Origin: Desulfobulbaceae bacterium
GTDB taxonomy: Bacteria; Bacteroidota; Ignavibacteria; Kapaibacteriales; UBA2268
Reading direction: 5' to 3'
Assembly (NCBI GenBank): GCA_018335795.1
Contig: JAGXRP010000058.1
Location: 11,520 to 75,519 of the forward strand
DNA: 64,000 nt
Both the position numbers and the translations under genes were made by a program. This document shows, piece by piece, positions 20,838 through 36,188 of the stretch (its first letter is position 1; each line of letters opens with the position of its first letter). The notes beneath the pieces are model-generated. The model had not been told where the DNA came from. It made no database searches and saw only the letters and a program-made list of their open reading frames with translations.

Positions 20838-23800
20838 ATGAAACGATTGATTCGTTTGAGTTTTTTGGTGGTACTATTGGGCATCCTGTCATACGGATAC
20901 GCTCAGTCAAACCAAGTTTACGTATCCGGTTCTATTGAGCCGGGTCAAGTAAGGGTTTTCATGAAAGACTCTGTTTACATATTCAATAAGGATTACACTG
21001 TAAACGGAACTCTTATAATAGAACCCGGAACAACACTCTACATGCATCCCAATGGCAGATTGATTGTCGCCGCAGGCGGCAGAGTTTTAGCCGATGGGCT
21101 TGCAAAAGCTTCTTATACTGAAAGACCGGGTGGTTTAAATCCGGTTTTGACATATGAGCCGCTTGGTCACGCCAGCTACGAGTATTTCTTCTACAATGCT
21201 GTTGACCAATACAATGACAACTCTGGTGCTGCTCGCACTATCAGAGTTGAATCACCTAAGGACCCGACGGTCCACATGGATAAGTATAATCATATTTTCC
21301 ATGTATTGTTGAATAAATCAACAAGGCAGATAGTTGATATTGCTGACCCCAGCAGTAGCAATTACCCAAGATTCCGTAATTCTGCGGCTCAAAATAATTC
21401 GAATCACATCGTACTATCGTACGAGCAAGCATTGATGTATCAAGCTGCACGTTTGAATTTTGACCCGGAAACTTACGATCCAAATCTTAAAACTATGCCT
21501 TGGAGAAGAGTTGGCGGTAAAGTCGCTACTATCGCTCCCGCAACGATTAAATTCATCGGTCAAGCATTTGATATGTCCCGTGAATGGGGTCATATTATAG
21601 TTTTACCAGGTGCAAGAGCTGCTTTCTTCAGAAATGTAGAATTTGAATCATTCAAAAAAGATACTACTGTTGATAGAGTTCCGCTTTATCCGGGTGGTGC
21701 TTCAACTGCTCTTAACATGAGAATGAAACAATTAACTAATGGTGCAGGTGGTGCTCTTACTACTTTCTCATCAAGAACTTGGTTGATTGATTGTAAATTT
21801 TCTAATAACATGGCTCGTCTTCGTGGCGGTGCTCTAAACATTTTGTCCTCACCTATCGAACTTGCTTCTACTTTTAACGGAAGCACTCAAGGTTTGGGCT
21901 ATTATCCTGCTACTAAAAACCCACACATAACAAATCCTGATGGTACTCCTTCTATTATTAATACTCAAAATCCAATTTTGAGAATTGATAATGTTGACGA
22001 AAATATGAATTTGGCTGAACCTTGGGGAAGCAATAACGCAACTTATCGTCAAGCTTTTGATGATGGTCGTTTAGCTCTTTTCTTAGGAAGAATGCGTAAC
22101 CTTGAATTTGACAATAACATGGTTCAATTAGCGAATGTTAGAGTTGAAATGCAAGATGGTCGCCAAATTACTCGTGACGTAACTGATGAACCTGCTAACT
22201 ATCCAATGCAAGCAGGCAATCATGCTTATGGTGGTGCGATTTACATTTCGGGTATGCCTGAATATAAAGAAAGACAAATTGAAGTTGCTTTAGGTTTCAA
22301 CAATAGCATTAATATCGGTGGCGAAGTTGTATTCTTTGATACCCCCGATACATTCATTGCAAAAAATAACTCTTCAAGAAACTTCCAACAGTCAATGAAT
22401 TCACATGGTGCTCGCGGTGGTGCTTTATACATTGCAAACTACACTTCTATGATTGTTGCAGGTGAATATACTGAAAATAACACATATGCTAAGTATTTCG
22501 AAGATGACTCATTATTCGGTGTTACTTCTGCAGGTTACTCACAAGGTGGCGCGATTTTCATGGAAAACACTCTTGCAAGACTTCAAGTAAGAGGTGGTCC
22601 TTCTCGTGAAAACGTCAACGAAACTTATTTCACAGGTAACAAATCAGCTGCCGGTGGAGCAATTTTTGTTGATGGTAATACTTCAGCTCATCCTTCACCT
22701 ATCGTTGGTGGTTCGGATGCGAAACTTGAAACAAGAGATTATGGCTTCGATATTAAATTCGAAGGCAATATGGCTTTGACTCATGGCGGTGCAATTCTCA
22801 CTAAGAGAAATATGTCTGTTAATGGCTCAGGTGGTGTTGAAGCAAATGCTTTATTAGGTTATGATGGTAAATATACTGTCAGATTCTGGAATAATACAGC
22901 CGGTTTCTCCGGTGGTGCGATTGACATCAGAATACCTAATGCAATTCCTCCGGTTCCTCCAATTAAGAGAGTTGTTTCTCTTATCCGTGCAGAATTCATT
23001 GGCAACGTTGTCGGTGAAGGTATGGAAGGCGATAACATTACTCAAATTCGTGGTGGTGGTGCAGTTTATTCATTCAATGGCGAATTAAACGTTATCAAAG
23101 GTGTTGACTTTTTGAACAACACTGTATATAATGGTAATGGTGGTGCGGTATCTTTGGTTAATCTGCAAGATGAAGCTTCAAAACGCTATTTCCTTACTGA
23201 CTTAGATGAAATTCATTATCAAAACGGTTTACCTGTTGGCTATCATTCAAATGATGATGCATTTACAGGTGCTGACCAAACTTTCCCGGCTGACGTCAGA
23301 ATGTTAACAAGATTCATTGACAATAAAGTCGTTCTTGATACTGAAAATGAGCTTGTACAAGCTCAAATGGGTACAGGAACAACTCAAGTTGGTCAAGGCA
23401 CTCCTGTTACTACTTTAGATTTGTTAGCAACAAAATGGGTTACTAATACTACCGGTTATGCTGTTGGTATGAATGGTGTAGCTATTAAATTTACAAATAG
23501 CGGTGACAATTGGCAATACTTAAACACAGGTGTTCCATTTAGATTCACTACAGTTGCATTTACTTCAGAAATGGTTGGCTACTTTGGTGGCGACCGTGGT
23601 ATTATCGTTAAAACTATTGACGGTGGTGCTACTTTCCAAATGCTAAATACAAATACTGACAAGAGAATCAATGACGTATTCTTTGTAGGTTCAAACGTTG
23701 GTTATGCAGTTTGTGATGATGGTTACATCTTAAGAACTGTTAATGCCGGCGCTACTTGGTCTGTTACAAAACCTGGTATCCTTGATTTGAAGAGCGTATT

Positions 23801-26800
23801 CTTTGTTTCTACAAATGTCGGTTTCGCAGTTGGTAACAATGCTGAAGTTTTAAGAACTTCTGATGGCGTTACTTGGGAATTTATTGACTTAGCAGGAACA
23901 TACCAAGATTTGAATTCAGTTCATTTTGTTAATTCAAATAAAGGCTTTATCTTAGGTCAAAACGGTACATTCTTAGTAACTGAAAATGCAGGTAATACTT
24001 GGAATTTGGTTGACTTTGGTATCATGAATCACTTGAAAGATATTACTTTCATTGGTCAAACTAACGGCTATATGATTGGTACAGGCGGTTTGGCTTGGAA
24101 ATCAGTTGACGGTGGTACTAATTGGACTCCAATGGTTACTAATACTGAATTGAACTATCATGGACTTAGCTTCCCAACTCCAAATGTTGGTTATATTGTC
24201 GGCGATGCCGGATTGGTATTAAGAACTATGGATGCCGGTGCAAACTGGACTAAAGCTAATCCTACAAATATGAGCTTTACAGACGTAAAACGTTACAACC
24301 TTGATTCATGGTTACCAGAAAATGGTATTGGTCTTGGTGGTGCTCTTTATATTCTTGATAGCGTTTCATCTTCTAAAATTGGAAGAATTGATTCAGTTAA
24401 CTTTAACCGTGTTAGAATTCAAGATAACATGGCTTATTCAGGTTCTGCAATCTATTCAGATAACTATGATTTGAAACTTATCTTAACTCGTTCATTGGTA
24501 ACAGGCAATAATGCTTATTCAATGGTTGGAATGGAACAAAATGTCATCACAGGTGCTCTTTCAAGAGACAACGGTGGTAATATTAACTTTAACGAAGCAT
24601 CATCAGACCTCGTAGGTACTACGATTTATGGTGAAGTTCAAGGTCCATTGCCCGCTTATACATATTCAGAAGCCGCAAATAGTATTTACAACAATAATGC
24701 AAGATTCTTGATTAGATTGCCTGATGCACCGAATTCAAAAGGTATATTGGCAGGTACTACAGGTCTTGGTTATGGTGGTACTGATACATTACGCGGTAAC
24801 TTCTGGGGTGCTACTGAAGCAAATGTTCATTTTACTTTGCCTCATATGCAACAAAATCCTCAATTTGCAAGAATGGAAACTTTCTTCGTTTCAGGCGATG
24901 GCAATACTTGGTTACAATTCTTATACCCTGAATTGATTAATCCAAATCCTGCTGACCCAAGACAAAAAGGTCCATTTGAATCAATTGCAAGAGGCGACGT
25001 TATGTACGTTCCTATAGTATTGAAAAATGAAGCCGGAACACAAAATACACATGACGCAATGAGTATTCCTGAAAAATTACTCATGTCAGGTCACGTTTAT
25101 GATTTATACGACAAAAACACTGACATTAAAACTGCTGATTATTCAAACAGAAGAATGAGCCCAATTGAAGACTTTGCTGTAGGTATTCCACCTAAGTTAA
25201 GAACTTTCGATAACGTTAACCAACCTTCATATGGTAAGGTAATCAAACGTTGGACTCGCGATCCATTTATTGCAGAAGCAAGAGATGAATCAAACAACTT
25301 GAAATATCCTGGTATTGCTGCACTTCTTACAGAATTCAAACCTGATATGAATGGTGTAAACTATCATCCAATCGGTTATCCTCTGTATCTTGAAGCAAGA
25401 GCTAACTATGAAGATTTAACAAGAAGAAGCAATCATGACCCGAGATTATTGAACCATACAGTTTACTTTGTAATCAACTTGAATACAGGTGACTATGTTC
25501 GTGCTAATCTCGAACAAGTAAGTGAAAATGCTCCTCATAGAGAAACTTTCAGAGCTACAATCGAAATGATTCCTGACTCTTCAGAAAGACGCGACCCAAC
25601 TTGGAGACGTTCTTCAGAAGGTTTGGCTAACTTAGGTTCAGGTCCTGAATTGTTAAAGAGACTATACTTAGACCCATATGATGAAGATTTCGGTGTCCTC
25701 CAAGGTCGTCGTTATACAGCACAAACTCACAGATTACTCGGTAGAGTTCCTGATTTATTCAGCAACCGCCCGGGTATGCCTGCATCAAACTTAATTGGTT
25801 CAGAATCAAGAACTACTTACTTTGGTGGCGAAAGATATCGTTCATTACCGGTAAGAGTTGGTGACTCAGTACAAATCGTTTCAAGAACTATTCTCTGGAG
25901 AGAAGGCGTTCATGAAGCAGCTTTGAAAGGAACTGCATTCAGAATCGTAGAATCAACAGTACCTCCTGTATTTACAGGCGATATCGTGAAATTACAAACT
26001 GACACTATTTTCAAAATGCTTCCATCTTATGATAACCCTGATGTTAAAGAAGAAGTTGTTATTACTGAATTCTTAAACAAAGTGTTTGTTACTGAAGATA
26101 GACCTTATCCTGTTGATTTCCGTACTTATAGCGGATTAGACGTCGAAGGCGACCCTGCTATGGAAATTGCTGGTGGACGTGGAAGAGACTCAATCTTAAA
26201 TATTACTGCAGTTGACACTAATAGATTCTGGGATCCAAGATTTTTGGAAGATCCGGCTAACTATTCACAATTAGGCTATAGAATTGAGCTTGAACCAAAT
26301 TCAGGTTTAAAACATTGGTTAGTTGTTAATAGAAAATCAGCTTCGTCACCAGTAAAAGATGGTGCGTATGGTTACTTAGAATTAGCAGGTCGTCCAATCA
26401 ATCCGTTCGTAGTACCAGGCGGAGAATGGGTCAGAGTTTACTCTGATAATTATCCTCCTCATTACAGAACGCTTGATTCATTGTTAGCTTTCCAACCGCC
26501 GTTAGATGCAGATGTGATTGCACAATATATCGAATCATTCCCTGCATATATGCATGCTGAAATGTACGATATTGCAAATGCAAGATACTTGCAACAAGAT
26601 ACAATTAACGTAGGTCCAAGATATACTAATTCATACCAATTCCATATCTTTGTTGTTGATAGCGTCCCCAGATTCTTGGAAGATGGAGATGGCGGTATTG
26701 AAACAATCTACAGAATTGATAAACCAAATGAAGTATATGTAGATTACGTACCTTCAGTATATCCTTGTGGAACTGATAGAGAAGATAGATTGCTTGCAAA

Positions 26801-28868
26801 CTTAACTGATAAGCTTAGATTCCAAATTGATATAAATACTGACGACGAATTAGAAGACCATTCTCCTGCAGCTGCAGGTTGGGATTTCCGTTATGGTAGA
26901 ACATCTTATGGATATATAAGCAAGGCTATACGCATGAACCCGGCAGATTCAGCCATATTTGATGAAATTGAATATGAAGGTGACTTTGAATGGGTAGAAG
27001 GCGTTTACTTAGTTCAATCAAGACCTCAATGGATGGATGCTAAATATATGTATCTATACGACAGTGAAACTGATTCAGATGCTTTTGGTACTGATTTCAC
27101 TGCTTTTGGTAAGATCAATATCAGAATTCCTGCAGACGAAGCATTAGAAATGATTACGCCTGATCCTCAATATCATGGCGCATTCCATACTGATACTATA
27201 TTCACAATCGTAGTTAATGACGGTCATAGTGGTATTGCCTCAAAACAATATAATGTAATGATAAATATTGTTCCGACTATCGTAACAAATTCGTTACCTG
27301 CTGCTATTGAAGATAGAGATTACAATCCAACTTTGTTAGATCAAACTCGTAGAATTGTAGTTACTGATCCTAACTTCGGACAAAAACATACTTACAAGTT
27401 GATTTATGTTAATACTCCTGAAAATTCAATTCCAATTGACCCTTGCTTTGAAGATGCAGGAAATATTGATTTGACTGATAAGAAGACGACTCCACTTTGG
27501 TTGAAAATTAATCCAAATACAGGCGTATTGTATGGAACTCCAAGAGTAAAAGATGCACCTAAAGATGTATTAGTTACTGTAGTTGTAACAGACGAAAACG
27601 GGCTTTCAACTTATGCTCAAATTCCTCTTACAGTCCAAGGTGTTTCTCATAATCCTTACATAACCGGTGTCCCTGAAGTAGATTGTATTTATCCAAATCT
27701 ACCATGGAGTACTAAGATGACTATATATGATATTGACTTACTAAGAACTAATCCTGCTGAAACAATAACAATTAAATTATTGAATTCTGAAGGCTTACCA
27801 TTGCAAGGATTTACAGTAACTCCAAGTACCTACTCAGGTAATGGGACTACTGATAATTTTGAAATTACAATTTCAAAAACAGGCAATATTCAACCTGATG
27901 CAGATGGTAAAGTTACTATAAAAGTTATTGTTGAAGATATATTTGGTAATAAGTTTGAAAAAATCTTCAAGTTGCACGTATCACTCGAAACTAACTTCAT
28001 TGCTTCGGTAAGAGTAGAAAACGTTAATGGTGCATACCAAGATTTGACTTTTGGTACTTCAAGCATACCCGGTACTTCGACAGGCGATGGAAACGATGGT
28101 GAATATGTTGGTAAACTTGACGCAGAACTTTGCGAATATGAATTACCACCTGTCCCATTTGCTGACGTATTTGACTCAAGATGGGAAATTGCAAACAGAC
28201 AGGGTGTTCATACAAACATCTTCCCAACTGCAATTAGCAACAATAATAGAGTATATATTTATAAAGCTAAATTCCAAGCAGGCGGTCTCGCAGGCGGAAC
28301 ATCAGCACTATATCCTGTTAAGATTTCTTGGGACCCGAACCAAATCCCTGCTCTCAATGATGTTACTAAGAATCCTGCGGGTTCTTCATGGCACTTAAGA
28401 GACAGATTCTCTGATGGTAATCTCTTTACTTTCAATATGAGAGACCCAATGCAAAACTATTACACAAGTTCCGTTCAATTCGCAATGATTGATGGTAAAG
28501 CTGTTGTAACTGTGACTGACAATGCTATTGATGGTTTTGTAATTATGCACGACTGGACTAACTCTGTTATAGAAGTTAATCCTAATGCAAGCGCAACTCG
28601 TATCGTTAGCGTTTCACCTAATCCGGTCAACGAAAACACTACAATCGAATTCGAATTGCTTAATAGCGGTAATGTAACCATTCAATTGGTTGACCTTATC
28701 GGTAATGAGTTGATGACACTTACTAACGATGTTATGACAAGCGGTACATACCAAATTAATTGGGATGGTAATTTAACTGACGGTAACAAAATCTCAAGCG
28801 GTCAATACATGCTTAGATTAGTTTCAGGTAAAGCTACCAGCGTTTATCCGATTGTAATAGTTAAATAA
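20838..28868 (+). CDS. Giant (2676 aa) T9SS cargo: polymorphic-membrane-protein-like beta-helix repeats + Ycf48/BNR-like beta-propeller + C-terminal sorting domain
   Basis: Signal peptide; repeated GGA(I/L/V)(Y/F) Pmp-type motifs; seven blades of G..(N/T)W...(D/N) propeller (~res 870-1110); C-terminal NPVNENTTIEF...GQYMLRLVSG CTD. Confidence 0.75.
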   Translation: MKRLIRLSFLVVLLGILSYGYAQSNQVYVSGSIEPGQVRVFMKDSVYIFNKDYTVNGTLIIEPGTTLYMHPNGRLIVAAGGRVLADGLAKASYTERPGGLNPVLTYEPLGHASYEYFFYNAVDQYNDNSGAARTIRVESPKDPTVHMDKYNHIFHVLLNKSTRQIVDIADPSSSNYPRFRNSAAQNNSNHIVLSYEQALMYQAARLNFDPETYDPNLKTMPWRRVGGKVATIAPATIKFIGQAFDMSREWGHIIVLPGARAAFFRNVEFESFKKDTTVDRVPLYPGGASTALNMRMKQLTNGAGGALTTFSSRTWLIDCKFSNNMARLRGGALNILSSPIELASTFNGSTQGLGYYPATKNPHITNPDGTPSIINTQNPILRIDNVDENMNLAEPWGSNNATYRQAFDDGRLALFLGRMRNLEFDNNMVQLANVRVEMQDGRQITRDVTDEPANYPMQAGNHAYGGAIYISGMPEYKERQIEVALGFNNSINIGGEVVFFDTPDTFIAKNNSSRNFQQSMNSHGARGGALYIANYTSMIVAGEYTENNTYAKYFEDDSLFGVTSAGYSQGGAIFMENTLARLQVRGGPSRENVNETYFTGNKSAAGGAIFVDGNTSAHPSPIVGGSDAKLETRDYGFDIKFEGNMALTHGGAILTKRNMSVNGSGGVEANALLGYDGKYTVRFWNNTAGFSGGAIDIRIPNAIPPVPPIKRVVSLIRAEFIGNVVGEGMEGDNITQIRGGGAVYSFNGELNVIKGVDFLNNTVYNGNGGAVSLVNLQDEASKRYFLTDLDEIHYQNGLPVGYHSNDDAFTGADQTFPADVRMLTRFIDNKVVLDTENELVQAQMGTGTTQVGQGTPVTTLDLLATKWVTNTTGYAVGMNGVAIKFTNSGDNWQYLNTGVPFRFTTVAFTSEMVGYFGGDRGIIVKTIDGGATFQMLNTNTDKRINDVFFVGSNVGYAVCDDGYILRTVNAGATWSVTKPGILDLKSVFFVSTNVGFAVGNNAEVLRTSDGVTWEFIDLAGTYQDLNSVHFVNSNKGFILGQNGTFLVTENAGNTWNLVDFGIMNHLKDITFIGQTNGYMIGTGGLAWKSVDGGTNWTPMVTNTELNYHGLSFPTPNVGYIVGDAGLVLRTMDAGANWTKANPTNMSFTDVKRYNLDSWLPENGIGLGGALYILDSVSSSKIGRIDSVNFNRVRIQDNMAYSGSAIYSDNYDLKLILTRSLVTGNNAYSMVGMEQNVITGALSRDNGGNINFNEASSDLVGTTIYGEVQGPLPAYTYSEAANSIYNNNARFLIRLPDAPNSKGILAGTTGLGYGGTDTLRGNFWGATEANVHFTLPHMQQNPQFARMETFFVSGDGNTWLQFLYPELINPNPADPRQKGPFESIARGDVMYVPIVLKNEAGTQNTHDAMSIPEKLLMSGHVYDLYDKNTDIKTADYSNRRMSPIEDFAVGIPPKLRTFDNVNQPSYGKVIKRWTRDPFIAEARDESNNLKYPGIAALLTEFKPDMNGVNYHPIGYPLYLEARANYEDLTRRSNHDPRLLNHTVYFVINLNTGDYVRANLEQVSENAPHRETFRATIEMIPDSSERRDPTWRRSSEGLANLGSGPELLKRLYLDPYDEDFGVLQGRRYTAQTHRLLGRVPDLFSNRPGMPASNLIGSESRTTYFGGERYRSLPVRVGDSVQIVSRTILWREGVHEAALKGTAFRIVESTVPPVFTGDIVKLQTDTIFKMLPSYDNPDVKEEVVITEFLNKVFVTEDRPYPVDFRTYSGLDVEGDPAMEIAGGRGRDSILNITAVDTNRFWDPRFLEDPANYSQLGYRIELEPNSGLKHWLVVNRKSASSPVKDGAYGYLELAGRPINPFVVPGGEWVRVYSDNYPPHYRTLDSLLAFQPPLDADVIAQYIESFPAYMHAEMYDIANARYLQQDTINVGPRYTNSYQFHIFVVDSVPRFLEDGDGGIETIYRIDKPNEVYVDYVPSVYPCGTDREDRLLANLTDKLRFQIDINTDDELEDHSPAAAGWDFRYGRTSYGYISKAIRMNPADSAIFDEIEYEGDFEWVEGVYLVQSRPQWMDAKYMYLYDSETDSDAFGTDFTAFGKINIRIPADEALEMITPDPQYHGAFHTDTIFTIVVNDGHSGIASKQYNVMINIVPTIVTNSLPAAIEDRDYNPTLLDQTRRIVVTDPNFGQKHTYKLIYVNTPENSIPIDPCFEDAGNIDLTDKKTTPLWLKINPNTGVLYGTPRVKDAPKDVLVTVVVTDENGLSTYAQIPLTVQGVSHNPYITGVPEVDCIYPNLPWSTKMTIYDIDLLRTNPAETITIKLLNSEGLPLQGFTVTPSTYSGNGTTDNFEITISKTGNIQPDADGKVTIKVIVEDIFGNKFEKIFKLHVSLETNFIASVRVENVNGAYQDLTFGTSSIPGTSTGDGNDGEYVGKLDAELCEYELPPVPFADVFDSRWEIANRQGVHTNIFPTAISNNNRVYIYKAKFQAGGLAGGTSALYPVKISWDPNQIPALNDVTKNPAGSSWHLRDRFSDGNLFTFNMRDPMQNYYTSSVQFAMIDGKAVVTVTDNAIDGFVIMHDWTNSVIEVNPNASATRIVSVSPNPVNENTTIEFELLNSGNVTIQLVDLIGNELMTLTNDVMTSGTYQINWDGNLTDGNKISSGQYMLRLVSGKATSVYPIVIVK

Positions 28869-28951
28869 TTCAATTATTGAGCAGGCTTCTCTTTTGAGGA
28901 GCTTGCTCAAAATTAAACATTGAAAATAAATATAAAAAATAGGAGATAATC

Positions 28952-30880
28952 ATGAAAAAATTTCTATTGAGTGCGATAATGATGACAGTAATTGCTGTTG
29001 TCGTCAATCTGCCTCAAACAGCAATTGCTCAGGTGTTCGGTGAATTCAATAGCATCACATTGGTCGAAAATAAACCATATGATGAATTTTCTGATGGAAC
29101 TTTAATACCTGCCAGTGCGTTCTCGTTAGGTCCAAACTTTAACGAAACAAACAAGAAAGATGGATACTATCGTGTTAATCTCGGATTCGATTTCGAGTTT
29201 AACGGAGAAATATTTAACCAAGCGTGGATTTCAGTGAATGGGTATATTACCTTGTCACCTCCTCCATTCTTGCCATCACCAAATCCACAAGCTCTATTTT
29301 TGGATGCAAATAGCTATCCAACTAACGTAATTGCTCCATTTTGGGGTGACCACTATTATAGAGATGAAACAGACTTCTTCACAAACGGATATGTTGTTTC
29401 AGGAATTTCTTACAAAACTATTTCTGAATTTGACGAAGATGGCAAAGAAAGAAAAGTTTTTATCGTACAATGGAAAGATTTAAATATCAATTATATACTT
29501 GACGGTGACCCTGTCAAATCAAGCGTTGGTAATTTCCAAGTTAGATTATACGAGTCATACGATGAATATTCAAAACAAGGCGATATCGAATTTGCATATG
29601 GTTCCATCGGACCACGCAATCGTCCTGATATAACTGACACACGCGTTATCACACGCGGCGCTGTCGCGGGTATCAAAGGCGAAGGCAAAATCGTTGGCGA
29701 AGGTGCAGACTTTTTGAACGGTTTGTTTTTTGATAGAGATCTTCAATTGGCAAGCACAAGAACTGACGTTACTCAAAATTGGCAACCTTCAACCGGTTCC
29801 GACAAGAGAATCCTCTTTACTGCAAGCATCAGATTTAATGTTGCAGAATGGTGGGGCGATGGTGACGTTGACTTTTCAAAAGCAGTTGGTAACAAGCATT
29901 ACAATATGCCACAAAGTAGATTTGTAACTGTTAACGATGTTAGATTAATTATGAAATCCGTTGCTACCGGTATTCCTTTGGATCCCGTAAGACGTCGTGC
30001 AGCTTACCACGCTGATGTAAACCATAATGGTAGATATTATTACAATACTTCTGGCGATAAAGTTAATATAACTAGAAGAAGCAAAGTATTTACTGATGAT
30101 TTGCCAAATGAAATCAGTTCTATTAAGCAAGTTCTTTTTGAAGCAAACGAATATGATGCAGCTTGGATTTTGCGTTATATTGGTGCAAGGATCGTTGAAT
30201 TGCCTTGGTTGATTGATACTTCAGTTAACTATGGTAAATTAGCTGCTGAAGAACATGCTAACCATATTAAGTTAGGAAATATTACTAATTTAGGTAATGG
30301 TACAATTCAAGTTCCTGTCTATTTGAATGGAACTTTGAATAACGCGCTTGGTATCAAATTTAATGTAAATGCCGAAATCCTTGATGTAATCAAATACGAG
30401 ACGGAAGCGTCAAATATTATGGTTATGTCCAATGCTAATACTGTAGTTATATCTGGTGATGGCAAATTCTCAAATACTGACCCCGTTGTTATTCTTACCT
30501 TAAGATTAAACGATGCAGCTTTGAATTTAACAAATATCAGATTTAACGATAATGTCGTTGGCGACTTAAGCCTTGTTGTTAATAAAGTTGAAACAAGTGA
30601 TGCTACGGTTCTTACATTATCGAATACTCCAAATCCATTTGCCGAAAATACACTTATCAATGTTAATATTGCCCAATCAGGCAACTATTCGCTAAACGTA
30701 TATGATTTGCAAGGCAATTTGGTAAAAGAAATCTTTAACGCTGACTTGACAGCTGATGTTCATTCATACTTGTGGAATGGCTCTGATATAAATGGCAACA
30801 GTGTTGCTAACGGAGTCTATATCTACAAATTGCGTGGAAACGGTATTAATGTCTCAGAAACAATGATTTTAAACAGATAA
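28952..30880 (+). CDS. Secreted protein with T9SS C-terminal sorting domain
   Basis: Signal peptide; C-terminal NPFAENTLINV...GVYIYKL CTD. Confidence 0.65.
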   Translation: MKKFLLSAIMMTVIAVVVNLPQTAIAQVFGEFNSITLVENKPYDEFSDGTLIPASAFSLGPNFNETNKKDGYYRVNLGFDFEFNGEIFNQAWISVNGYITLSPPPFLPSPNPQALFLDANSYPTNVIAPFWGDHYYRDETDFFTNGYVVSGISYKTISEFDEDGKERKVFIVQWKDLNINYILDGDPVKSSVGNFQVRLYESYDEYSKQGDIEFAYGSIGPRNRPDITDTRVITRGAVAGIKGEGKIVGEGADFLNGLFFDRDLQLASTRTDVTQNWQPSTGSDKRILFTASIRFNVAEWWGDGDVDFSKAVGNKHYNMPQSRFVTVNDVRLIMKSVATGIPLDPVRRRAAYHADVNHNGRYYYNTSGDKVNITRRSKVFTDDLPNEISSIKQVLFEANEYDAAWILRYIGARIVELPWLIDTSVNYGKLAAEEHANHIKLGNITNLGNGTIQVPVYLNGTLNNALGIKFNVNAEILDVIKYETEASNIMVMSNANTVVISGDGKFSNTDPVVILTLRLNDAALNLTNIRFNDNVVGDLSLVVNKVETSDATVLTLSNTPNPFAENTLINVNIAQSGNYSLNVYDLQGNLVKEIFNADLTADVHSYLWNGSDINGNSVANGVYIYKLRGNGINVSETMILNR

Positions 30881-30881
30881 A

Positions 30882-32087
30882 ATGAAGAATCGTTTTACGA
30901 TATATATGATGTTGTTACTGTTGCCGATGATTACCATCGGCAACAGTAGCTCATTATTTTCGCAAAATGAAATTAAACCTGCACTTACTAACTTTTATAA
31001 TACAAGACTTTGTGGAACCGAACGTAACAAAGAGATTTTGATATTGATAGAAATTGGTAGTGTTAGTCTTAAGGACTCATTGTACGGATTTGATTTTTCT
31101 GTTGCTTATGACCCAAGCATGATTAAGTTTGAAACTCCAATTTATATTAATACATTGTCCGAATTTTTTGAATGGAAAGACATAAGTTTTGGATTGGATT
31201 ATGGAAAAGTAAAAGGCTATGCTTTAGCTAATTTGCCTTTTGGCGGTAATAAGCCTTTGATTGGTTTTCTGGGTAAATATATACACGACTGTGACGTGGC
31301 AACTCCACTTGTTTTGGAATATCTTGAATTTACGGATGACTTCAAAAAAAGTGTAATTGCATCTGATACTCTTTGGGTAAAGCCTAATATAGTTGAAAAT
31401 CCTGACTATTTTTACAACATCTCTCTTGAAGAAGAAGTATTTGTTTTTGAAAAAGAAGATACTAAATTATTCAGAGCCGAAATTGAATATGTATCAAACG
31501 CCAGTAGTGAAGAATTGGGGTTTGAAATTAGGGTTGATACGGATAATTACTTGATTGAGTCAATCCAACCTATAAATTCTTCATTTGAGATTTTGGAGCA
31601 AAATGTCTTGCAAAATGGATTGAATCTTAAAGTGAAACTGAATATTGAGCTTACTGATAATATTGAATTTTCAATATTATTGCGTGAACTTAGAAAAGAT
31701 TCCAACCAAACTTACAAGCTGGATGTAGTACCTTTACAATTGAGCGAATGTAATTGCGTTTCAATGTATAATGGTGATTTTGTTGAAATAAAAACTGTAA
31801 TAGATGGTCAAGATACCACTGTTTCAGCAATAGATGACAAATATTACTCAAATCATATACAAGTATTGACTGATGATGTTTATATTACTATAGACAATCA
31901 ATCAGCAACGACTATGAAAGCAGTGCATTTATTCAATTATGAAGGTAAATTGGTGAAATCATTTACTGACATAGCTCAGAAGAGATATAGCATTGATAAA
32001 AGCAATCTGACTCCCGGTGTATATTTTTTAAATATACTTATGTCAGATTTGGAATTTGTAAAAAAAACAGTTTTAATATACAATTAG
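30882..32087 (+). CDS. Hypothetical secreted protein, probable T9SS CTD
   Basis: Signal peptide; C-terminal ...LTPGVYFLNI... CTD-like. Confidence 0.5.
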   Translation: MKNRFTIYMMLLLLPMITIGNSSSLFSQNEIKPALTNFYNTRLCGTERNKEILILIEIGSVSLKDSLYGFDFSVAYDPSMIKFETPIYINTLSEFFEWKDISFGLDYGKVKGYALANLPFGGNKPLIGFLGKYIHDCDVATPLVLEYLEFTDDFKKSVIASDTLWVKPNIVENPDYFYNISLEEEVFVFEKEDTKLFRAEIEYVSNASSEELGFEIRVDTDNYLIESIQPINSSFEILEQNVLQNGLNLKVKLNIELTDNIEFSILLRELRKDSNQTYKLDVVPLQLSECNCVSMYNGDFVEIKTVIDGQDTTVSAIDDKYYSNHIQVLTDDVYITIDNQSATTMKAVHLFNYEGKLVKSFTDIAQKRYSIDKSNLTPGVYFLNILMSDLEFVKKTVLIYN

Positions 32088-32103: not shown

Positions 32104-35100
32104 ATGGGGGTTATTATGAAACTCTTACTACGTTTAGGTAAAATCAGAAATGCCTTTTTACTGTCTCTGGTTATTGGTTTTATAGCCTTGACTATTACTG
32201 ATTCTTACTCACAATCTAACCGTCCTGAGATACCGAAATTGAGTTTAATGGGACAAGACGAATCCTATGACACTGATTTCTATCCGGATGGAAGAATTTG
32301 GGTTCCGCCAACCACAACTGGCGCACGAGAATTTTTAGTACCTGTGTTTATCACAAACAACTGGTATAGCTATACTAACGCACAAGGCGTTGCATTGTAT
32401 TCGGTGAATCCGATTACAAGTTTTGAGTTTTCGATTTTCTATAATGGTGAAGCAGTTCGCGCGATTGGCGTCGAAAAGGCACATCCATCATTTGTAAATG
32501 ATTTGGATTATGAACCTTTAGCAAGCACCTTCGAAATAAAAACCGATGACTTCGAAGACGATTATTATTGGTACTACATCAACCCGAATAAATGGAATGA
32601 TGCACGTGACAATGAAAATGGACGTAGGATAAATATTACAGGCGCTTCTGCTAAATATCTTCCTAACACTGATAGACAATTCAAAGAATACAAAGTTATG
32701 TTGTATGTAAGATTTAGAGTTATTGCAACAAGCAAACCCGGAGACCCTGGTTTCCAATTGTTACAAACATCACCTATGTACATTGACAACAGAAAAGTCA
32801 AATACAACGAGATGGATGTTGCTACAGATTTAGCATGGCAACATATGACAGACTATGATATAAATAACTATCGTAATCTTTACAATCGCGTTTTGATAGG
32901 TCCAAACAGAGGTAGATTAGATGGCAATTTGTTTGTTCCCGAATCATACTTAGATGGGTTGAACAATGCTCCAATTTCCGAAGATGATAACAATATACTT
33001 CTTCCGGGTCCATTACAAGATGATGCGATGTGGAAATCCGAACCTGTACTTCCGGGTGTAATTACATTGAAGATTTCTGATGCGGTGCCTAAATTTAGAG
33101 TAGCATCAGTTACAGATGATGAATATGAGTCATTCGATAATGGCAGTCTTTACTATTTGCCTCAGGTTGTCACAGTTGATGATAATTCACCTGAAGTGAT
33201 TGGTATAGCTAGAATTAAAATCACTAACAGTACAACCAAATCAAGACTTAATAATATTCGTATCGAAACTGATAACGATTGGTTAAGATTGAATACAGAT
33301 GAGCTTAATCAAAATAGAACTCTACGTACTAGACCTCGTGACGCTAATGCAAAATGGCTTGATAATGGGATTTTAGGTTTTGAATTAGATCCTATACTCA
33401 AAACTACACAAGACGATGGTGATATTTTCTTAAGAATATCGGCTGACCCAAAAAGATTGACAAATAAAGGTGATGAACCTTGGGGACTTCATGAAGGTTT
33501 TGTAACTATCCATTCCGATTATTCAATCGTAAGTCCGGTAAGGGTTAGAGTATTATTCTACTTCTTGGCAAATCCGTTTGAACCTTCATTAACTAAGACT
33601 TCTCCTGGTGGTATTAACCTAAAAGTTACTAATTCTCAAGGTGCAGCAGGTACGTCTTTAAATATGGTATTCGGTACTGGCAATAGAGCTACTGACGGTG
33701 TTGATTTACTTTATGGTGAAAGAGCTTATACATTTCCTTTGTCAGCATCTAACTTTGATGTTCGTTTCTTCCCATTCCCTGCTAATCCTGCAATTCCTTA
33801 TGGTTTTGGAGATTTTGCACCTAACGTAAATGGACCAAGAACTATTTCACGTGACATCAGAAATCACAATATGCCTGATAGTATTAACTCTTATATTTAT
33901 CTTGCTCGTTTCAACAATGCTGCTGCGGATTATCCGATTATTGTTGAATGGGATACTCGTGACTTCCCCGATGGAGCACAATTGTTTATTCGTTCGGTTC
34001 TTCAAGGTGAATTGTTACCGGCTACTGATATGAGATCGGCTACTTCTACAGGCGATTTTACACGTGCGTTTACAATTCAAGACCCAAGAGTCAAAGAATT
34101 TAGAATTGAATATACTTTACCAAGTGCTATTGATTTTCTTGATTCAGAAGGCAATCCTATCATCAAATATGGTTGGAATTTGCTTTCGATGCCTTTGAAA
34201 CCAACTAACAGCAAATGGGATGTCGTTTACAAAAACGCAATTAATATCCCTTATGCTTTTGTTAATACTCAATATCAACCAAGAGAAATTTTGAAATTTG
34301 GTGAAGGATATTTTGTAAAATATCCCAAAACTGTTGATACAAAATTTGCAGGTGCTTTTGTTACCCAAATTGGTGCTCCTGTTGATCAAATTCGTGTATT
34401 TGGTGGCGACGCTCCAGATCCGGGTGACCAACAATACAGAGGTGGTTGGAATCTAATTGGTGCTCTTTCGGTAGAAACAAGCACTGATGGAATATTATTC
34501 ACTCCAACACCTGACGGTTCTTTACCTAATACTGATTATACGAAACGTTATGATGTTTGGGGTTACAGAACTGACTTAGGCTACCATGCAGTTTCTATTT
34601 TAACTCCCGGCTTTGGATATTGGATTAAAACTTCAGGCGATGGTTTCCTTAGATTGATTGAAACACCAAATAATAAAGTAATCGGTGGTAGTTCAGCTCA
34701 ATTAACAAAACAAAACATTCTTGACAAATCACAAATGATTAGTGTTCGTGATAATGCACAGAAATCTACTCAATTATACATATCGAATAATTCCAATTTG
34801 GAAGTTGACAATTTTGAATTGCCACCAACTCCTCCGTTAGGTCTGTTTGATGTTAGATTTAAAGATAATAGTTACTTGACCAATGCATTGGAAAATGTAA
34901 TAACTCTTCAAGGTGCTACATATCCGGTATCATTCACAGTTAACAACGCAGAAACTAATTTGACATTTATTGACCCTGTAACAGGAGAGGTTTATGGTAC
35001 AATCGAAGCCGGTAAATCAGGTTCGGTCCAAATTAGAAATCTTCCGTTTAACTCTGTGAAAATCATGAAGCCAACAAGTAGTGATATCAGTTCATTTGAA

Positions 35101-35349
35101 TTTAGTACTTATCCTAATCCTGCTACTCATAATGCTACAATGACTATTAATTTACCTGAAAGCGGTAACGTCGTTGTTGGATTATATGATGCATTAGGTA
35201 ATCAAGTTGCTGTTTTATTGAACCAAGAAATTGCTGCCGGTCAATACATTCACAATGTTGATTTGACTGCTTATGCTTCAGGAAGCTACACTTTGAAAAT
35301 TGTAGCAGGTCAATTTAGCACAGCTGCCAAATTGAACATCGTGAAATAA
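32104..35349 (+). CDS. Large secreted protein (1081 aa) with T9SS C-terminal sorting domain
   Basis: TM/signal N-terminus; C-terminal YPNPATHNATMTINLPESGNVVVGLYDALGNQV...GSYTLKIV. Confidence 0.65.
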   Translation: MGVIMKLLLRLGKIRNAFLLSLVIGFIALTITDSYSQSNRPEIPKLSLMGQDESYDTDFYPDGRIWVPPTTTGAREFLVPVFITNNWYSYTNAQGVALYSVNPITSFEFSIFYNGEAVRAIGVEKAHPSFVNDLDYEPLASTFEIKTDDFEDDYYWYYINPNKWNDARDNENGRRINITGASAKYLPNTDRQFKEYKVMLYVRFRVIATSKPGDPGFQLLQTSPMYIDNRKVKYNEMDVATDLAWQHMTDYDINNYRNLYNRVLIGPNRGRLDGNLFVPESYLDGLNNAPISEDDNNILLPGPLQDDAMWKSEPVLPGVITLKISDAVPKFRVASVTDDEYESFDNGSLYYLPQVVTVDDNSPEVIGIARIKITNSTTKSRLNNIRIETDNDWLRLNTDELNQNRTLRTRPRDANAKWLDNGILGFELDPILKTTQDDGDIFLRISADPKRLTNKGDEPWGLHEGFVTIHSDYSIVSPVRVRVLFYFLANPFEPSLTKTSPGGINLKVTNSQGAAGTSLNMVFGTGNRATDGVDLLYGERAYTFPLSASNFDVRFFPFPANPAIPYGFGDFAPNVNGPRTISRDIRNHNMPDSINSYIYLARFNNAAADYPIIVEWDTRDFPDGAQLFIRSVLQGELLPATDMRSATSTGDFTRAFTIQDPRVKEFRIEYTLPSAIDFLDSEGNPIIKYGWNLLSMPLKPTNSKWDVVYKNAINIPYAFVNTQYQPREILKFGEGYFVKYPKTVDTKFAGAFVTQIGAPVDQIRVFGGDAPDPGDQQYRGGWNLIGALSVETSTDGILFTPTPDGSLPNTDYTKRYDVWGYRTDLGYHAVSILTPGFGYWIKTSGDGFLRLIETPNNKVIGGSSAQLTKQNILDKSQMISVRDNAQKSTQLYISNNSNLEVDNFELPPTPPLGLFDVRFKDNSYLTNALENVITLQGATYPVSFTVNNAETNLTFIDPVTGEVYGTIEAGKSGSVQIRNLPFNSVKIMKPTSSDISSFEFSTYPNPATHNATMTINLPESGNVVVGLYDALGNQVAVLLNQEIAAGQYIHNVDLTAYASGSYTLKIVAGQFSTAAKLNIVK

Positions 35350-35371: not shown

Positions 35372-35406
35372 GGGCAACCGGATTTATCCTGTTGCCCTTT
35401 TATTTT
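35372..35406 (+). terminator. Rho-independent terminator
   Basis: GGGCAAC-cggatttatcct-GTTGCCC followed by TTTTATTTT. Confidence 0.7.
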
Positions 35407-35411: not shown

Positions 35412-36188
35412 TTGGAATTGGATATGAAAAAGTATATTATCTTAATCTTACTATTCATATTATTAGCTGAAAATTTGAAATCTCAAGTTCATTCAGTTAC
35501 TAATTTGAACATTACGAACGACCGTGGAGCTAAACTCAGTTGGAATTACGGGTTTGGTGCATCGCATATGGCAACCGACGGAGTTGATAAAGAATTAGGC
35601 GAATTTGATTTGCCGCCTGCTCCACCCGAGGGTTTATATGTGTATTTTGAATATATCTACAACAGAGATGGAATGGATGAAATCATTTCCACTAATATGG
35701 ACATTAAGGCTGTTCCTGATGAAGAACATTTTTATATTAAGCATAAATTGAATATAAAATGGGGATTTTCTAAGGAAGTTTATATAAAATGGAATAATCT
35801 TTCTTTTTCGGCACATGTTGATTCTGTCTTTATCAAAGACCCATTTGATGGGCAATTCATCAAAGCTGATATGAAGCAAAAGGATTCGATTTTACTCCGG
35901 AATAGTGCATTTACCGTCTTCTACATTCATGTTTATTATTCTAAAAATCCTGCAAGTATCGTTGATGGTTATGAAAATCTAAAAGACTATCAAGTATTTC
36001 CTAATCCTGTTGATGATATTTTATCTATAGGAAAAAAGGATTTTAACGATTTAATCGTTTACTCAAGTGATGGCAGAATGATTGCACGTTTTGAGAAGAA
36101 TGAATTGATTTCACTCAAACATCTACAAACAGGAATTTATTTTTATTTAATTGATGGTATTCATTACGGAAAATTTATAAAACAATAA
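35412..36188 (+). CDS. Small secreted protein with T9SS CTD
   Basis: Signal peptide; C-terminal FPNPVDDILSI...GIYFYLI. Confidence 0.55.
   Translation: MELDMKKYIILILLFILLAENLKSQVHSVTNLNITNDRGAKLSWNYGFGASHMATDGVDKELGEFDLPPAPPEGLYVYFEYIYNRDGMDEIISTNMDIKAVPDEEHFYIKHKLNIKWGFSKEVYIKWNNLSFSAHVDSVFIKDPFDGQFIKADMKQKDSILLRNSAFTVFYIHVYYSKNPASIVDGYENLKDYQVFPNPVDDILSIGKKDFNDLIVYSSDGRMIARFEKNELISLKHLQTGIYFYLIDGIHYGKFIKQ

What the first reader, a model, noticed from the sequence alone, without database searches (positions are those of the whole stretch)
20838..36188. Fifteen-kb run of five co-directional T9SS cargo genes headed by a 2676-aa Pmp-like / Ycf48-like chimeric giant
Five consecutive + strand genes (2676, 642, 401, 1081 and 258 aa) all have signal peptides and end in type-IX secretion C-terminal sorting domains, with short intergenic gaps (1-83 nt). 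The first combines chlamydial polymorphic-membrane-protein-type GGA(I/L/V) beta-helix repeats with a seven-bladed Ycf48/BNR-like beta-propeller. The others have no recognisable catalytic domains. It looks like a dedicated surface-structure or adhesin operon of unknown function. A polyprenyl-phosphate GT2 gene follows immediately.
Basis: partly seen in the sequence, partly recalled or inferred. Interest (0 to 1): 0.55.

Follow-up and report, generated by a model that had tools for sequence, protein, structure and literature searches.

The report
Conserved Kapabacteria T9SS surface-protein operon
Five neighbouring genes for secreted, non-enzymatic surface proteins, plus three envelope genes after them, are kept in the same order in about 70 related uncultured species, which points to one undescribed multi-protein cell-surface structure with built-in RNA hairpins between its genes.

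Summary
Five co-directional ORFs (2676, 642, 401, 1081 and 254-258 aa) carry signal peptides. All five end in a type-A T9SS sorting domain that scores above the TIGR04183 cut-off.

The genes are not scattered or strain-variable. The order YfgM-like TPR, g1-g5, ArnC-like GT2, probable small outer-membrane beta-barrel, GT9 recurs in about 70 of 80 species-level Kapabacteria MAGs, at only 24-60% protein identity.

- **g1:** a PMP-repeat beta-helix giant. Its Ycf48-like seven-bladed propeller is an optional insert, absent in 15 of 69 orthologues.
- **g2:** the AlphaFold model shows a weakly NIDO-like domain, a dockerin-like helical segment, a cohesin-fold module and the CTD.
- **g4:** the AlphaFold model is an all-beta chain of sandwich domains.
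- **g1, g4 and g5:** share a ~150-aa module found in no other ORF searched.
- **Catalytic domains:** none was found in any of the five.

New here: structure-conserved stem-loops follow g1, g2 (inside the g3 signal-peptide codons, with covariation) and g4 (terminator-like). They split the block into g1-g4 and g5-GT2-OMP-GT9.

Best reading is a lineage-specific, stoichiometry-tuned, T9SS-displayed multi-protein surface assembly. Its function and partners are unproven. Interest is moderate.

The parts
20006..20737 (+). TPR gene: a YfgM-like inner-membrane-anchored periplasmic TPR protein (243 aa). It is the conserved first gene of the syntenic block and probably has its own transcript.
   Evidence: PF09976 TPR_21 hit at 1.7e-8 and one TM helix at residues 33-51. 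It lies directly upstream of g1 in 68 loci. A hairpin plus T-run follows at 20742-20759 in the window, but that hairpin is not conserved.
20838..28868 (+). g1: a 2676-aa T9SS cargo. Order of parts: signal peptide, PMP-repeat beta-helix (~250-850 and ~1150-1340), inserted seven-bladed Ycf48/BNR-like propeller (~860-1145), an 800-aa conserved region with no known family (1340-2150), a He_PIG Ig domain (~2207-2266), the shared module (2388-2568) and a type-A CTD (2593-2676).
28877..28910 (+). Conserved intercistronic stem-loop after g1. It has a 15-bp stem and a 4-nt loop, with no U-tract.
   Evidence: MFE -25.8 kcal/mol, z -5.7. The region after the g1 stop has z<-2 in 99% of 69 loci, and the arm sequences differ between loci.
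28952..30880 (+). g2: a 642-aa T9SS cargo and the best-conserved of the five. Parts: a weakly NIDO-like beta domain (~30-295), a dockerin-like helical segment with two invariant Asp/Asn-rich loops (~300-420), a cohesin-fold module (~440-545) and a type-A CTD.
30882..32087 (+). g3: a 401-aa T9SS cargo that evolves fast. It has four (nearly) invariant cysteines and no known passenger fold. Its start lies 1 nt after the g2 stop, which implies translational coupling.
30914..30950 (+). Conserved stem-loop inside the g3 signal-peptide codons (16-bp stem, 5-nt loop), about 32 nt after the g3 start codon.
   Evidence: z -7.4 in the window. 97% of 66 loci have z<-2, against 8-28% at the 5' ends of seven control genes. 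All 8 alifold pairs carry compensatory changes. 93% of cells are paired, with 101 double-change cells against 31 shuffled, 0 of 500. The covariance model hits almost only this site in 1.64 Mb.
32104..35349 (+). g4: a 1081-aa T9SS cargo built as an all-beta chain of sandwich domains. It carries the shared module at 496-670, the short ELPPxPP..FDxRF motif again at ~905-925, and a type-A CTD at 1003-1078.
   Evidence: AF2 model with pLDDT 86.8. Foldseek gives only generic multi-Ig matches at TM ~0.1. The family has 121 full-length members at 31-88% identity. hhalign results are.
35372..35406 (+). Terminator-like element after g4: the hairpin GGGCAAC...GUUGCCC (35372-35397) followed by UUUUAUUUU.
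   Evidence: The region after the g4 stop has z<-2 in 97% of 67 loci. The median stem is 13 bp, and 64% of loci have at least 6 T in the 10-nt tail.
35424..36188 (+). g5: a 254-aa T9SS cargo made of a signal peptide, the shared module (30-184) and a type-A CTD (195-258). It is the first gene of the probable second transcription unit.
   Evidence: A positional orthologue is present in every locus that has both g4 and GT2.
36195..37268 (+). GT2: a polyprenyl-phosphate glycosyltransferase of the ArnC/PgfS/GtrB type with two C-terminal TM helices. It starts 6 nt after g5.
   Evidence: PF00535 at 9.6e-32. NF007986 scores 197 bits, below the equivalog cut-off.
37336..38079 (+). unk247: a lineage-specific 247-aa protein with a signal peptide. 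It is probably a small outer-membrane beta-barrel.
   Evidence: Weak OMP_b-brl and OMP_b-brl_2 hits in 7-8 of 49 orthologues. No PDB relative was found. The family is confined to the same MAG lineage.
38082..39158 (+). GT9: a heptosyltransferase-like glycosyltransferase that starts 2 nt after unk247. It is the last gene of the conserved block in most genomes.
   Evidence: PF01075 at 6e-12, with TIGR02193/02195 below cut-off. It is present next to unk247 in 53 loci and absent there in one divergent clade.

Best explanation
The locus is a core, lineage-specific cell-envelope module of Kapabacteria-type Bacteroidota. It encodes five structural proteins that are displayed together on the cell surface.

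**Shown**
- Each protein has a Sec signal peptide and a type-A T9SS sorting domain.
- None has a detectable catalytic domain.
- g1 is a long PMP-repeat beta-helix with an optional lectin-like propeller.
- g2 has a cohesin fold next to a dockerin-like segment.
- g4 is a string of beta-sandwich domains.
- g1, g4 and g5 share a private ~150-aa module. In g1 and g5 it sits directly before the CTD.
- Gene order and content are fixed across about 70 species.

**Inferred**
- After Sec export, the T9SS translocates the five proteins.
- A PorU-type sortase then removes the CTD and links each protein to an LPS-type anchor.
- On the surface they assemble into one hetero-oligomeric structure, either an adhesive fibre or a coat. 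g1 would be the long outward element. g2 would be a connector through its cohesin and dockerin-like parts. The shared module would be the common base.
- The second unit (g5-GT2-OMP-GT9) supplies or modifies the glycolipid or outer-membrane anchor.

**Expression pattern**
The conserved stem-loops after g1 and g2 and the terminator-like hairpin after g4 set a descending expression gradient: g1 >= g2 >= g3, g4 > read-through. This is the pattern seen in operons that make a major structural subunit followed by minor or accessory ones.
For: - **Sorting signals:** CTD and signal peptides on all five.
- **Synteny:** strict TPR-g1-g2-g3-g4-g5-GT2-unk247-GT9 order in about 70 of 80 species-level genomes at 24-60% identity. 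The outer neighbours (PDH E1, RlmD) vary.
- **Packing:** median gaps are -1 to 95 nt.
- **Retained in a small genome:** the locus is kept in the 2.66-Mb closed Ch6 genome (L041; PMC7509429).
- **Folds:** confident AF2 models of g2 and g4 are all-beta or structural, with cohesin matches from two methods.
- **Shared module:** hhalign probability is 98-99%. It is found in no other ORF of the window or of 1.6 Mb of loci.
- **Purifying selection:** g2 has about 50 invariant residues across the lineage. That argues for purifying selection on specific contacts, and against diversifying selection on a variable adhesin.
- **Hairpins:** they occur after g1, g2 and g4 only, conserved in 92-99% of loci, and the g3-site hairpin shows covariation.
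Against: - No experiment and no proteomic or transcript data exist for any member.
- Physical interaction between the five proteins is inferred from co-conservation only.
- Pfam Cohesin and Dockerin HMMs do not hit g2. The dockerin-like reading rests on motifs and helices alone.
- g3 and g5 were not modelled, and 800 aa of g1 (1340-2150) have no assignable fold. An enzymatic domain could be hidden there.
- T9SS machinery genes were not seen in this window, so their presence in the genome is assumed from the many CTD proteins.
- PDH E1 is also syntenic in many genomes, which shows that some conservation of order here is not functional.
- GT9 is not adjacent in one clade.
Confidence: 0.5

Rival explanations
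1. The five are independent T9SS cargo proteins, separate adhesins or binding proteins that do not form one complex. They stay together only because they share regulation, or because gene order in this lineage is generally conservative.
For: PDH E1 and RlmD, which have unrelated functions, are also syntenic in many genomes. Other unrelated CTD cargo genes lie elsewhere in the window (15731-17401 and 55942-59979). No interaction has been shown.
Against: The outer neighbours do break away in subsets of genomes, while the five cargo genes never do. g2 and g3 are translationally coupled, with a median gap of -1 nt. Three of the five share a module found nowhere else. The graded hairpin pattern is typical of subunit stoichiometry control.
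Confidence: 0.2
2. The proteins form a two-dimensional S-layer-type lattice, as TfsA and TfsB (T9SS-exported, glycosylated) do in Tannerella. g4 and/or g1 would be the lattice subunits, and the downstream glycosyltransferases would glycosylate or anchor them.
Against: The structural matches are generic (TM ~0.1). Five different proteins, including a 2676-aa beta-helix, are more than known S-layers need. No S-layer family HMM hits. No expression-level data exist.
Confidence: 0.15
3. The locus is a surface polysaccharide-binding or degrading system. The g1 right-handed beta-helix would act as a lyase or hydrolase, and its BNR propeller as a glycan-binding or GH74-like unit. The other proteins would be accessory binders held together cellulosome-style by cohesin and dockerin.
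For: Beta-helix and BNR/Sortilin-type propellers occur in carbohydrate-active enzymes. There is a weak NF045728 'F510_1955 glycosylhydrolase' hit (38 bits against a cut-off of 175). g2 has a cohesin fold.
Against: No CAZyme, lyase or peptidase family reaches threshold in any of the five. The propeller is absent from 15 of 69 orthologues. No SusC/D, transporter or sugar-catabolic genes lie in the conserved block.
Confidence: 0.08
4. The proteins are lineage-specific parts of the secretion or attachment machinery itself, analogues of PorU and PorZ. Those are CTD-bearing and are held by the outer-membrane barrels PorV and PorQ. Here unk247 would be the barrel partner.
For: PorU and PorZ appear among the structural matches of g2 and g4. 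A small probable OM barrel is encoded in the block. The locus is core and single-copy among the loci retrieved.
Against: The PorU matches cover only the CTD/Ig part. There is no C25 peptidase domain, no PorZ-type double propeller and no PorP/SprF or PorV family hit for unk247. The families are restricted to one class, whereas T9SS core parts are phylum-wide.
Confidence: 0.05

Closest known systems
T9SS type-A CTD cargo anchored to the cell surface (Porphyromonas gingivalis gingipains and other CTD proteins; Tannerella forsythia TfsA/TfsB S-layer)
   Same: Both have an N-terminal signal peptide and a C-terminal TIGR04183/PF18962 beta-sandwich sorting domain. Surface display is expected after sortase cleavage. 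Glycosyltransferase and LPS-type genes are relevant to anchoring.
   Different: Here five cargo genes form one fixed, class-wide block with private domain families, a shared pre-CTD module, cohesin and dockerin-like parts and conserved intercistronic hairpins. I found no described cargo set with this organisation.
Flavobacterium johnsoniae sprC-sprD-sprB-sprF operon (giant T9SS adhesin plus accessory proteins plus a dedicated outer-membrane barrel)
   Same: Both combine a giant repetitive T9SS-exported surface protein with smaller accessory proteins and an outer-membrane beta-barrel gene. This comparison comes from my own knowledge of the literature and was not tested against those sequences.
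   Different: SprB uses a type-B CTD and a PorP/SprF-family barrel. Here all the CTDs are type A, and unk247 hits no PorP/SprF model. Kapabacteria genomes carry flagellar genes (PMC6338057), so a gliding role is not needed.
Chlamydial polymorphic membrane proteins (Pmp autotransporter adhesins)
   Same: The GGA(I/L/V) repeat beta-helix passenger is present: 11 motifs and PF02415 at 51 bits.
   Different: There is no autotransporter beta-barrel or PMP middle domain. Export is by a T9SS CTD. The protein is three times longer and carries an inserted propeller and Ig modules.
Cohesin-dockerin assemblies (clostridial cellulosomes and the non-cellulosomal cohesins of Clostridium perfringens GH84C and Archaeoglobus)
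   Different: Neither the Pfam Cohesin nor the Dockerin HMM hits. No dockerin-bearing enzymes were identified. The host is Gram-negative, and anchoring is by T9SS rather than sortase or SLH.
Intercistronic stem-loops that set differential expression within operons (for example hairpins after the major-subunit gene in fimbrial operons, the puf operon, and REP elements in malEFG)
   Same: Stable hairpins sit directly after selected cistrons of a polycistronic structural operon. Structure is conserved while sequence drifts.
   Different: One of the three lies inside the next gene's signal-peptide codons, because g2 and g3 abut. Only the last one has a U-tract. No 3'-end or half-life data exist. 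The comparison is from general knowledge.

Membership tests
T9SS type-A cargo | C-terminal sorting domain matching TIGR04183 / PF18962 at the extreme C-terminus | tested here: met
   All five score above the TIGR04183 cut-off of 23 bits (25.7, 31.7, 24.4, 31.6, 29.1). 46 of 49 g2 orthologues hit PF18962. PDB profile hits go to solved CTDs.
T9SS type-A cargo | N-terminal Sec signal peptide | tested here: met
   All five have hydrophobic N-termini ending AQ/SQ. No dedicated predictor was available.
T9SS type-A cargo | Host encodes the T9SS machinery (PorK/L/M/N, SprA/Sov, PorV, PorU) | not tested
   None of these genes lies in the 64-kb window. Whole genomes were not scanned.
T9SS type-A cargo | CTD is cleaved and the protein is linked to anionic LPS | not testable with these tools
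   Needs proteomics or biochemistry.
T9SS type-B cargo / SprB-SprF type system | TIGR04131 / CHU_C type-B CTD with a PorP/SprF-family partner barrel | tested here: not met
   There is no TIGR04131 hit at E<=0.01. CHU_C hits are weaker than the type-A hits. unk247 hits no PorP/SprF model.
Chlamydial Pmp autotransporters | GGA(I/L/V)/FxxN repeat beta-helix | tested here: met
   There are 11 GGA[ILV] motifs against 0.58 expected. PF02415 scores 51.2 bits on residues 250-800. TIGR01376 scores 19.2 bits against a cut-off of 15.
Chlamydial Pmp autotransporters | C-terminal autotransporter beta-barrel and PMP middle domain | tested here: not met
   No such Pfam family appears among the hits to g1 or its segments. 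The C-terminus is a T9SS CTD.
Ycf48/HCF136 photosystem II assembly factor | Seven-bladed BNR-type propeller matching PF14870 | tested here: met
   PF14870 scores 86.8 bits against a cut-off of 27. Seven blade repeats can be read in residues ~860-1145.
Ycf48/HCF136 photosystem II assembly factor | Equivalog-level similarity (NF010237) and a stand-alone ~330-aa protein in a phototroph | tested here: not met
   NF010237 scores 93.9 bits against a cut-off of 326. The domain is an insert in a 2676-aa protein and is absent from 15 of 69 orthologues.
Cohesin module | Nine-stranded jelly-roll cohesin fold | tested here: met
Cohesin module | Sequence match to the Pfam Cohesin model | tested here: not met
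   No Cohesin hit in g2 or in 49 orthologues at E<=0.1.
Dockerin module | Duplicated calcium-binding loop-helix matching the Pfam Dockerin model, with a demonstrated cohesin partner | tested here: inconclusive
   There is no Dockerin HMM hit. g2 has invariant D303-G-D305..D329 and D355-V-N-H358-G-R361..D402 loops with helices at 327-339 and 400-410. Binding cannot be tested here.
NIDO domain (PF06119) | Match to PF06119 above the gathering score | tested here: inconclusive
Intrinsic (Rho-independent) terminator | GC-rich stem-loop followed directly by a U-tract | tested here: met
   This applies to the hairpin after g4 only. In the window it spans 35372-35397 and is followed by UUUUAUUUU. 64% of 67 loci have at least 6 T in the 10-nt tail.
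Intrinsic (Rho-independent) terminator | U-tract after the hairpins that follow g1 and g2 | tested here: not met
   Mean T content of the tails is 3.2 and 2.6 of 10. Only 1% and 8% of loci have at least 6 T.

The most novel reading that the evidence does not exclude
The block encodes a previously unknown kind of T9SS-built surface organelle that defines the Kapabacteria lineage. It would be a hetero-oligomeric fibre or coat assembled through a cohesin/dockerin-like connector (g2) and a private base module shared by g1, g4 and g5. A dedicated glycolipid or outer-membrane barrel made by the co-transcribed g5-GT2-OMP-GT9 unit would anchor it. A conserved set of intercistronic RNA hairpins would fix its subunit ratios, one of them embedded in signal-peptide codons where it may also gate termination-reinitiation from g2 to g3.
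Probability: 0.3. Interest if true: 0.7.

Novelty: new variant of a known kind. Interest (0 to 1): 0.5.

Why it matters
Kapabacteria are widespread, uncultured Bacteroidota found in aquifers, hot-spring mats, bioreactors and lakes. Their cell biology is unknown.

The locus occupies about 19 kb, and even the 2.66-Mb closed genome keeps it. Its gene order is fixed across the class. That makes it likely to encode a central feature of the cell surface, for attachment, a protective coat, or contact with partners or prey.

It also offers several things worth following up:
- new domain families: the shared module, the g4 family and a bacterial NIDO-like domain;
- a Gram-negative, T9SS-linked use of a cohesin fold;
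- a clean natural example of structure-conserved hairpins placed after selected cistrons, including one written into signal-peptide codons.

All of these can be tested with Term-seq or metatranscriptomes and with multimer modelling.

Tried and rejected
- **Cohesin-like g3 and g4 N-termini.** On first reading I thought these looked cohesin-like. hhalign of the sub-alignments against the g2 cohesin module gave under 40% probability, so I dropped the idea.
- **Promoter scans.** The sigma-70 scan of the region found no more sites than shuffles (89 against 74.9 +/- 8.8). The Bacteroidia-type -7 motif TAnnTTTG is not enriched upstream of any gene of the block. Promoters therefore remain unassigned.
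- **PDB profile searches.** Searches with g2 and g3 matched only CTD/FlgD-type Ig domains. The search with unk247 matched nothing.
- **Fold search of g4.** It gave only generic multi-beta-sandwich matches at TM ~0.1. No specific homologue can be claimed.
- **AFDB search.** The afdb50 library was not available, so the g2 N-domain was compared only with PDB folds.
- **Profile search of 1.84 billion representatives with g2.** It found roughly 80 full-length family clusters. A few giant proteins carry the N-domain elsewhere, but none has a name or annotation.
- **Literature.** Searches on Kapabacteria + T9SS, T9SS + cohesin/dockerin, bacterial NIDO, and Ignavibacteria + T9SS found no description of this locus.
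- **Hairpins after g1 and g2 as canonical terminators.** Rejected, because there is no conserved U-tract.
- **g3 hairpin as a by-product of signal-peptide coding.** Rejected. The signal-peptide codons of g1, g2, g4, g5 and unk247 show no such structure.
- **Gliding-adhesin (SprB-like) membership.** Rejected on CTD type and barrel family.


Full report
**1. Observation**

The gaps between them are 83, 1, 16 and 62 nt. For the fifth gene the likely start is ATG 35424, which gives 254 aa. This matches the public gene call on the same contig.

All five end in a type-A T9SS sorting domain. TIGR04183 scores 25.7, 31.7, 24.4, 31.6 and 29.1 bits against a cut-off of 23. PF18962 hits all five. All five begin with a hydrophobic signal-peptide-like segment that ends in Gln. 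That fits the Gln-after-cleavage habit reported for Bacteroidetes and Ignavibacterium (PMC5837995).

The next gene is a GT2 that scores best against ArnC and PgfS, which are polyprenyl-phosphate glycosyltransferases. It has two C-terminal TM helices.

**2. Source and phyletic spread**

The window is a metagenome contig (Logan SRR26856455). Its closest named relative is "Ignavibacteriae bacterium HGW-Ignavibacteriae-1", at 77-96% protein identity. More distant relatives are MAGs labelled Kapabacteria or Kapaibacterium, or carrying inconsistent labels. NCBI places Kapaibacterium in Bacteroidota.

- g4 defines a sharply bounded family. It has 121 clusters, nearly all full length, at 31-88% identity, and nothing beyond that.
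- The g2 family has roughly 80 full-length clusters at the 50% identity level among 1.84 billion representatives.
- The unk247 family is confined to the same lineage.

**3. Synteny, the main result**

I took three distant g4 homologues on long contigs and 80 species-level genomes retrieved with a g2 profile. In that scan 194 stretches encoded a relative, and the best 80 were kept.

tblastn of the window's proteins shows the same order in essentially every locus long enough to show it: TPR, g1, g2, g3, g4, g5, GT2, unk247, GT9. Typical identities to the window are 42-62% for g1, 36-61% for g2, 23-33% for g3, 30-56% for g4 and 24-36% for g5.

tblastn missed g5 in 24 loci. In each of those a positional ORF of 247-282 aa matches the g5 HMM at 1e-28 to 1e-76.

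The outer neighbours vary. PDH E1 upstream and RlmD/QueE downstream are present only in subsets of genomes. GT9 is not adjacent in one divergent clade.

The block is a core locus, not a strain-variable one. The closed 2.66-Mb Ch6 genome keeps it (L041; PMC7509429). Median gaps within the block are -1 to 95 nt.

**4. The proteins**

*g1.*
- It has 11 GGA[ILV] motifs against 0.58 expected.
- PF02415 scores 51 bits on residues 250-800.
- PF14870 scores 86.8 bits, and seven blades can be read at ~860-1145.
- It also carries a He_PIG Ig domain and the CTD.
- Residues 1340-2150 hit nothing, yet they are among the best-conserved parts.
- The propeller is an insert. It is absent from 15 of 69 orthologues, which are 2334-2486 aa long.
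- g1 is not a Pmp autotransporter, because it has no barrel. It is not a Ycf48 orthologue either, because NF010237 scores 94 bits against a cut-off of 326.

*g2.*
- This is the most conserved cargo, with about 50 invariant residues across 82 sequences.
- The AF2 model has pLDDT 85.1. It shows a beta domain (30-295), a helical segment (300-420), a beta-sandwich (440-545) and the CTD.
- The helical segment carries two invariant Asp/Asn-rich loops that resemble dockerin calcium loops. No Dockerin or Cohesin HMM hits.

*g4.*
- The AF2 model has pLDDT 86.8. It is an all-beta chain of sandwich domains.
- Matches are only generic multi-Ig proteins: hydin/ASH proteins, alpha-2-macroglobulins, an archaeal S-layer protein, PorU and GhpA, all at TM ~0.1.

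*g3 and g5.*
- g3 is poorly conserved, apart from four (nearly) invariant cysteines and a few other residues.
- g5 is small.

*Shared module.*
- hhalign links g4 496-670, g5 ~22-180 and g1 2385-2575 at 98-99% probability.
- In g1 and g5 the module sits directly before the CTD.
- HMMs of the module hit no other ORF in the window or in 1.6 Mb of related loci. That includes the two other CTD cargo genes of the window.
- A weak link to the g2 N-domain exists: hhalign gives 81%, and some g2 orthologues hit the g4 module HMM at 1e-7 to 1e-9.

**5. The trailing genes**

- GT2 is an ArnC/PgfS-type enzyme with TM helices.
- unk247 has a signal peptide and weak OMP beta-barrel hits in 7-8 of 49 orthologues, so it is probably a small outer-membrane barrel.
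- GT9 is heptosyltransferase-like.
- The upstream TPR protein is YfgM-like, with one TM helix and a TPR_21 hit.

**6. Unexpected finding: conserved stem-loops**

A terminator scan flagged a 16-bp hairpin at 30914-30950, inside the g3 signal-peptide codons. I followed it across the orthologous loci.

*The g3 site.*
- The +10..+90 nt stretch of g3 has median MFE -28.3 kcal/mol and median z -5.5. 97% of 66 loci have z<-2.
- The same stretch of g1, g2, g4, g5, GT2, unk247 and GT9 has median z -0.3 to -1.4.
- Median stem length is 13 bp, against 8-9 bp in the controls.
- The arms and the encoded peptides differ between lineages.
- RNAalifold finds 8 pairs, all with compensatory changes.
- A covariance model finds almost only this site in 1.64 Mb. 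That includes five loci that were not in the training set.
- On the model-fitted alignment 93% of cells pair. There are 101 double-change cells against 31 in shuffles (0 of 500). The covariation score is 0.675, against 0.02-0.16 when the partners are slid. The caveat is that this alignment is fitted to the model.

*All stop codons in the block.*
- Strong conserved structure appears after g1 (99% of loci with z<-2), after g2 (92%, the same g3 site) and after g4 (97%).
- It does not appear after TPR, g3, g5, GT2, unk247 or GT9 (5-23%).
- In the window the hairpins lie at 28877-28910, 30914-30950 and 35372-35397.
- Only the one after g4 has a U-tract, UUUUAUUUU in the window. 64% of loci have at least 6 T in the 10-nt tail. 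The figures after g1 and g2 are 1% and 8%.
- Rfam has no family at these sites.

*Reading (inference).*
- g1-g4 form one unit that ends at a terminator. It holds two internal hairpins that act as 3'-end stabilisers, processing sites or partial attenuators.
- g5-GT2-unk247-GT9 form a second, tightly packed unit, or a read-through tail.
- The g3 hairpin lies about 32 nt past a start codon that abuts the g2 stop. It could instead, or also, modulate termination-reinitiation or early elongation of g3.

**7. Mechanism**

The best-supported explanation is a lineage-specific surface assembly displayed by the T9SS.

The following are shown:
- signal peptides and CTDs on all five proteins;
- no detectable catalytic domain in any of them;
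- structural folds in g1, g2 and g4;
- a private module shared by g1, g4 and g5;
- obligate co-occurrence in a fixed order;
- hairpin placement consistent with graded subunit expression.

The following are inferred from established T9SS biology: translocation by the T9SS, CTD removal by a PorU-type sortase, and linkage to an LPS-type anchor.

The following are inferred from co-conservation and domain content only: hetero-oligomeric assembly, the connector role of g2, the base role of the shared module, and an anchor-building role for GT2/OMP/GT9.

Rivals are given with estimates in their own section: independent cargo, an S-layer lattice, a glycan-degrading system, and machinery components.

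**8. Comparison and novelty**

- The proteins meet the sequence criteria tested for T9SS type-A cargo: the signal peptide and the CTD.
- g1 works like a Pmp passenger but fails Pmp membership.
- Its propeller is Ycf48-like in fold only.
- g2 has a cohesin fold but fails the sequence models.
- The organisation loosely recalls sprCDBF (giant adhesin, accessories and a barrel), but it fails the type-B CTD and PorP/SprF tests.
- I found no paper that describes this locus.

I rate it a new variant of a known kind, with new domain families and an unusual, well-supported set of intercistronic RNA structures.

**9. Verdict**

Function is unknown experimentally. Interest is moderate (0.5): it gives a solid, testable lead into the surface biology of an uncultured class, plus a neat RNA-structure case. 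It is not yet tied to a long-standing open question.

Noticed in passing
window 28877-28910, 30914-30950, 35372-35406 (and the same positions in loci L002-L084): Three structure-conserved stem-loops follow g1, g2 and g4 only. The second lies inside the g3 signal-peptide codons and shows compensatory changes. The third is terminator-like. None matches an Rfam family.
   Followed up: yes
window 23400-24270 (g1 residues ~860-1145): The Ycf48/BNR-like seven-bladed propeller is an optional insert in the g1 beta-helix. 15 of 69 orthologues lack it, while the rest of g1 aligns end to end.
   Followed up: yes
window 41285-42100 (-) and 42116-45256 (-): A DPM1-like GT2 sits next to a 1046-aa TMEM260-like (DUF2723) GT-C protein O-mannosyltransferase homologue. 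This is a candidate periplasmic protein-O-mannosylation pair, 3 kb from the cargo block. It is adjacent in this genome's own contig, but in three more distant relatives the downstream genes differ.
   Followed up: partly
window 19892-19966 (+): tRNA-Arg(CCG) lies between the PDH E1 gene and the TPR gene. It marks a transcription-unit boundary upstream of the block.
   Followed up: partly
window 17563-19731 (+): A single 722-aa ORF fuses the E1 alpha and E1 beta subunits of a 2-oxoacid (pyruvate-type) dehydrogenase. It is syntenic with the block in many but not all relatives.
   Followed up: partly
window 2820-8017 (-): A 1347-aa MmeI/Eco57I-type restriction-modification fusion carries an inserted DUF559 endonuclease-like domain. 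Next to it is a protein with four helicase-associated (HA) domains. The stretch has low GC (0.33 at 4001-6000), so it is probably a mobile defence islet.
   Followed up: no
window 15731-17401 (-) and 55942-59979 (+): Two further type-A CTD cargo genes are present. One has Receptor-L/LRR domains. The other is 1345 aa with FN3, PKD and SusE-like domains. Both lack the module shared by g1, g4 and g5.
   Followed up: partly
window 8077-9270 (-): A 397-aa ORF contains two complete adenylate-kinase domains in tandem.
   Followed up: no
g2 orthologues P0248, P0283, P0291, P0296, P0298, P0303: Some members of the g2 family carry an insertion of 80-220 aa after about residue 359, between the two dockerin-like loops. 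This gives lengths of 726-866 aa.
   Followed up: no
window 52491-55682 (-): A 1063-aa Tricorn-type protease has PD40 propeller, Tricorn C1, PDZ and S41 domains.
   Followed up: no
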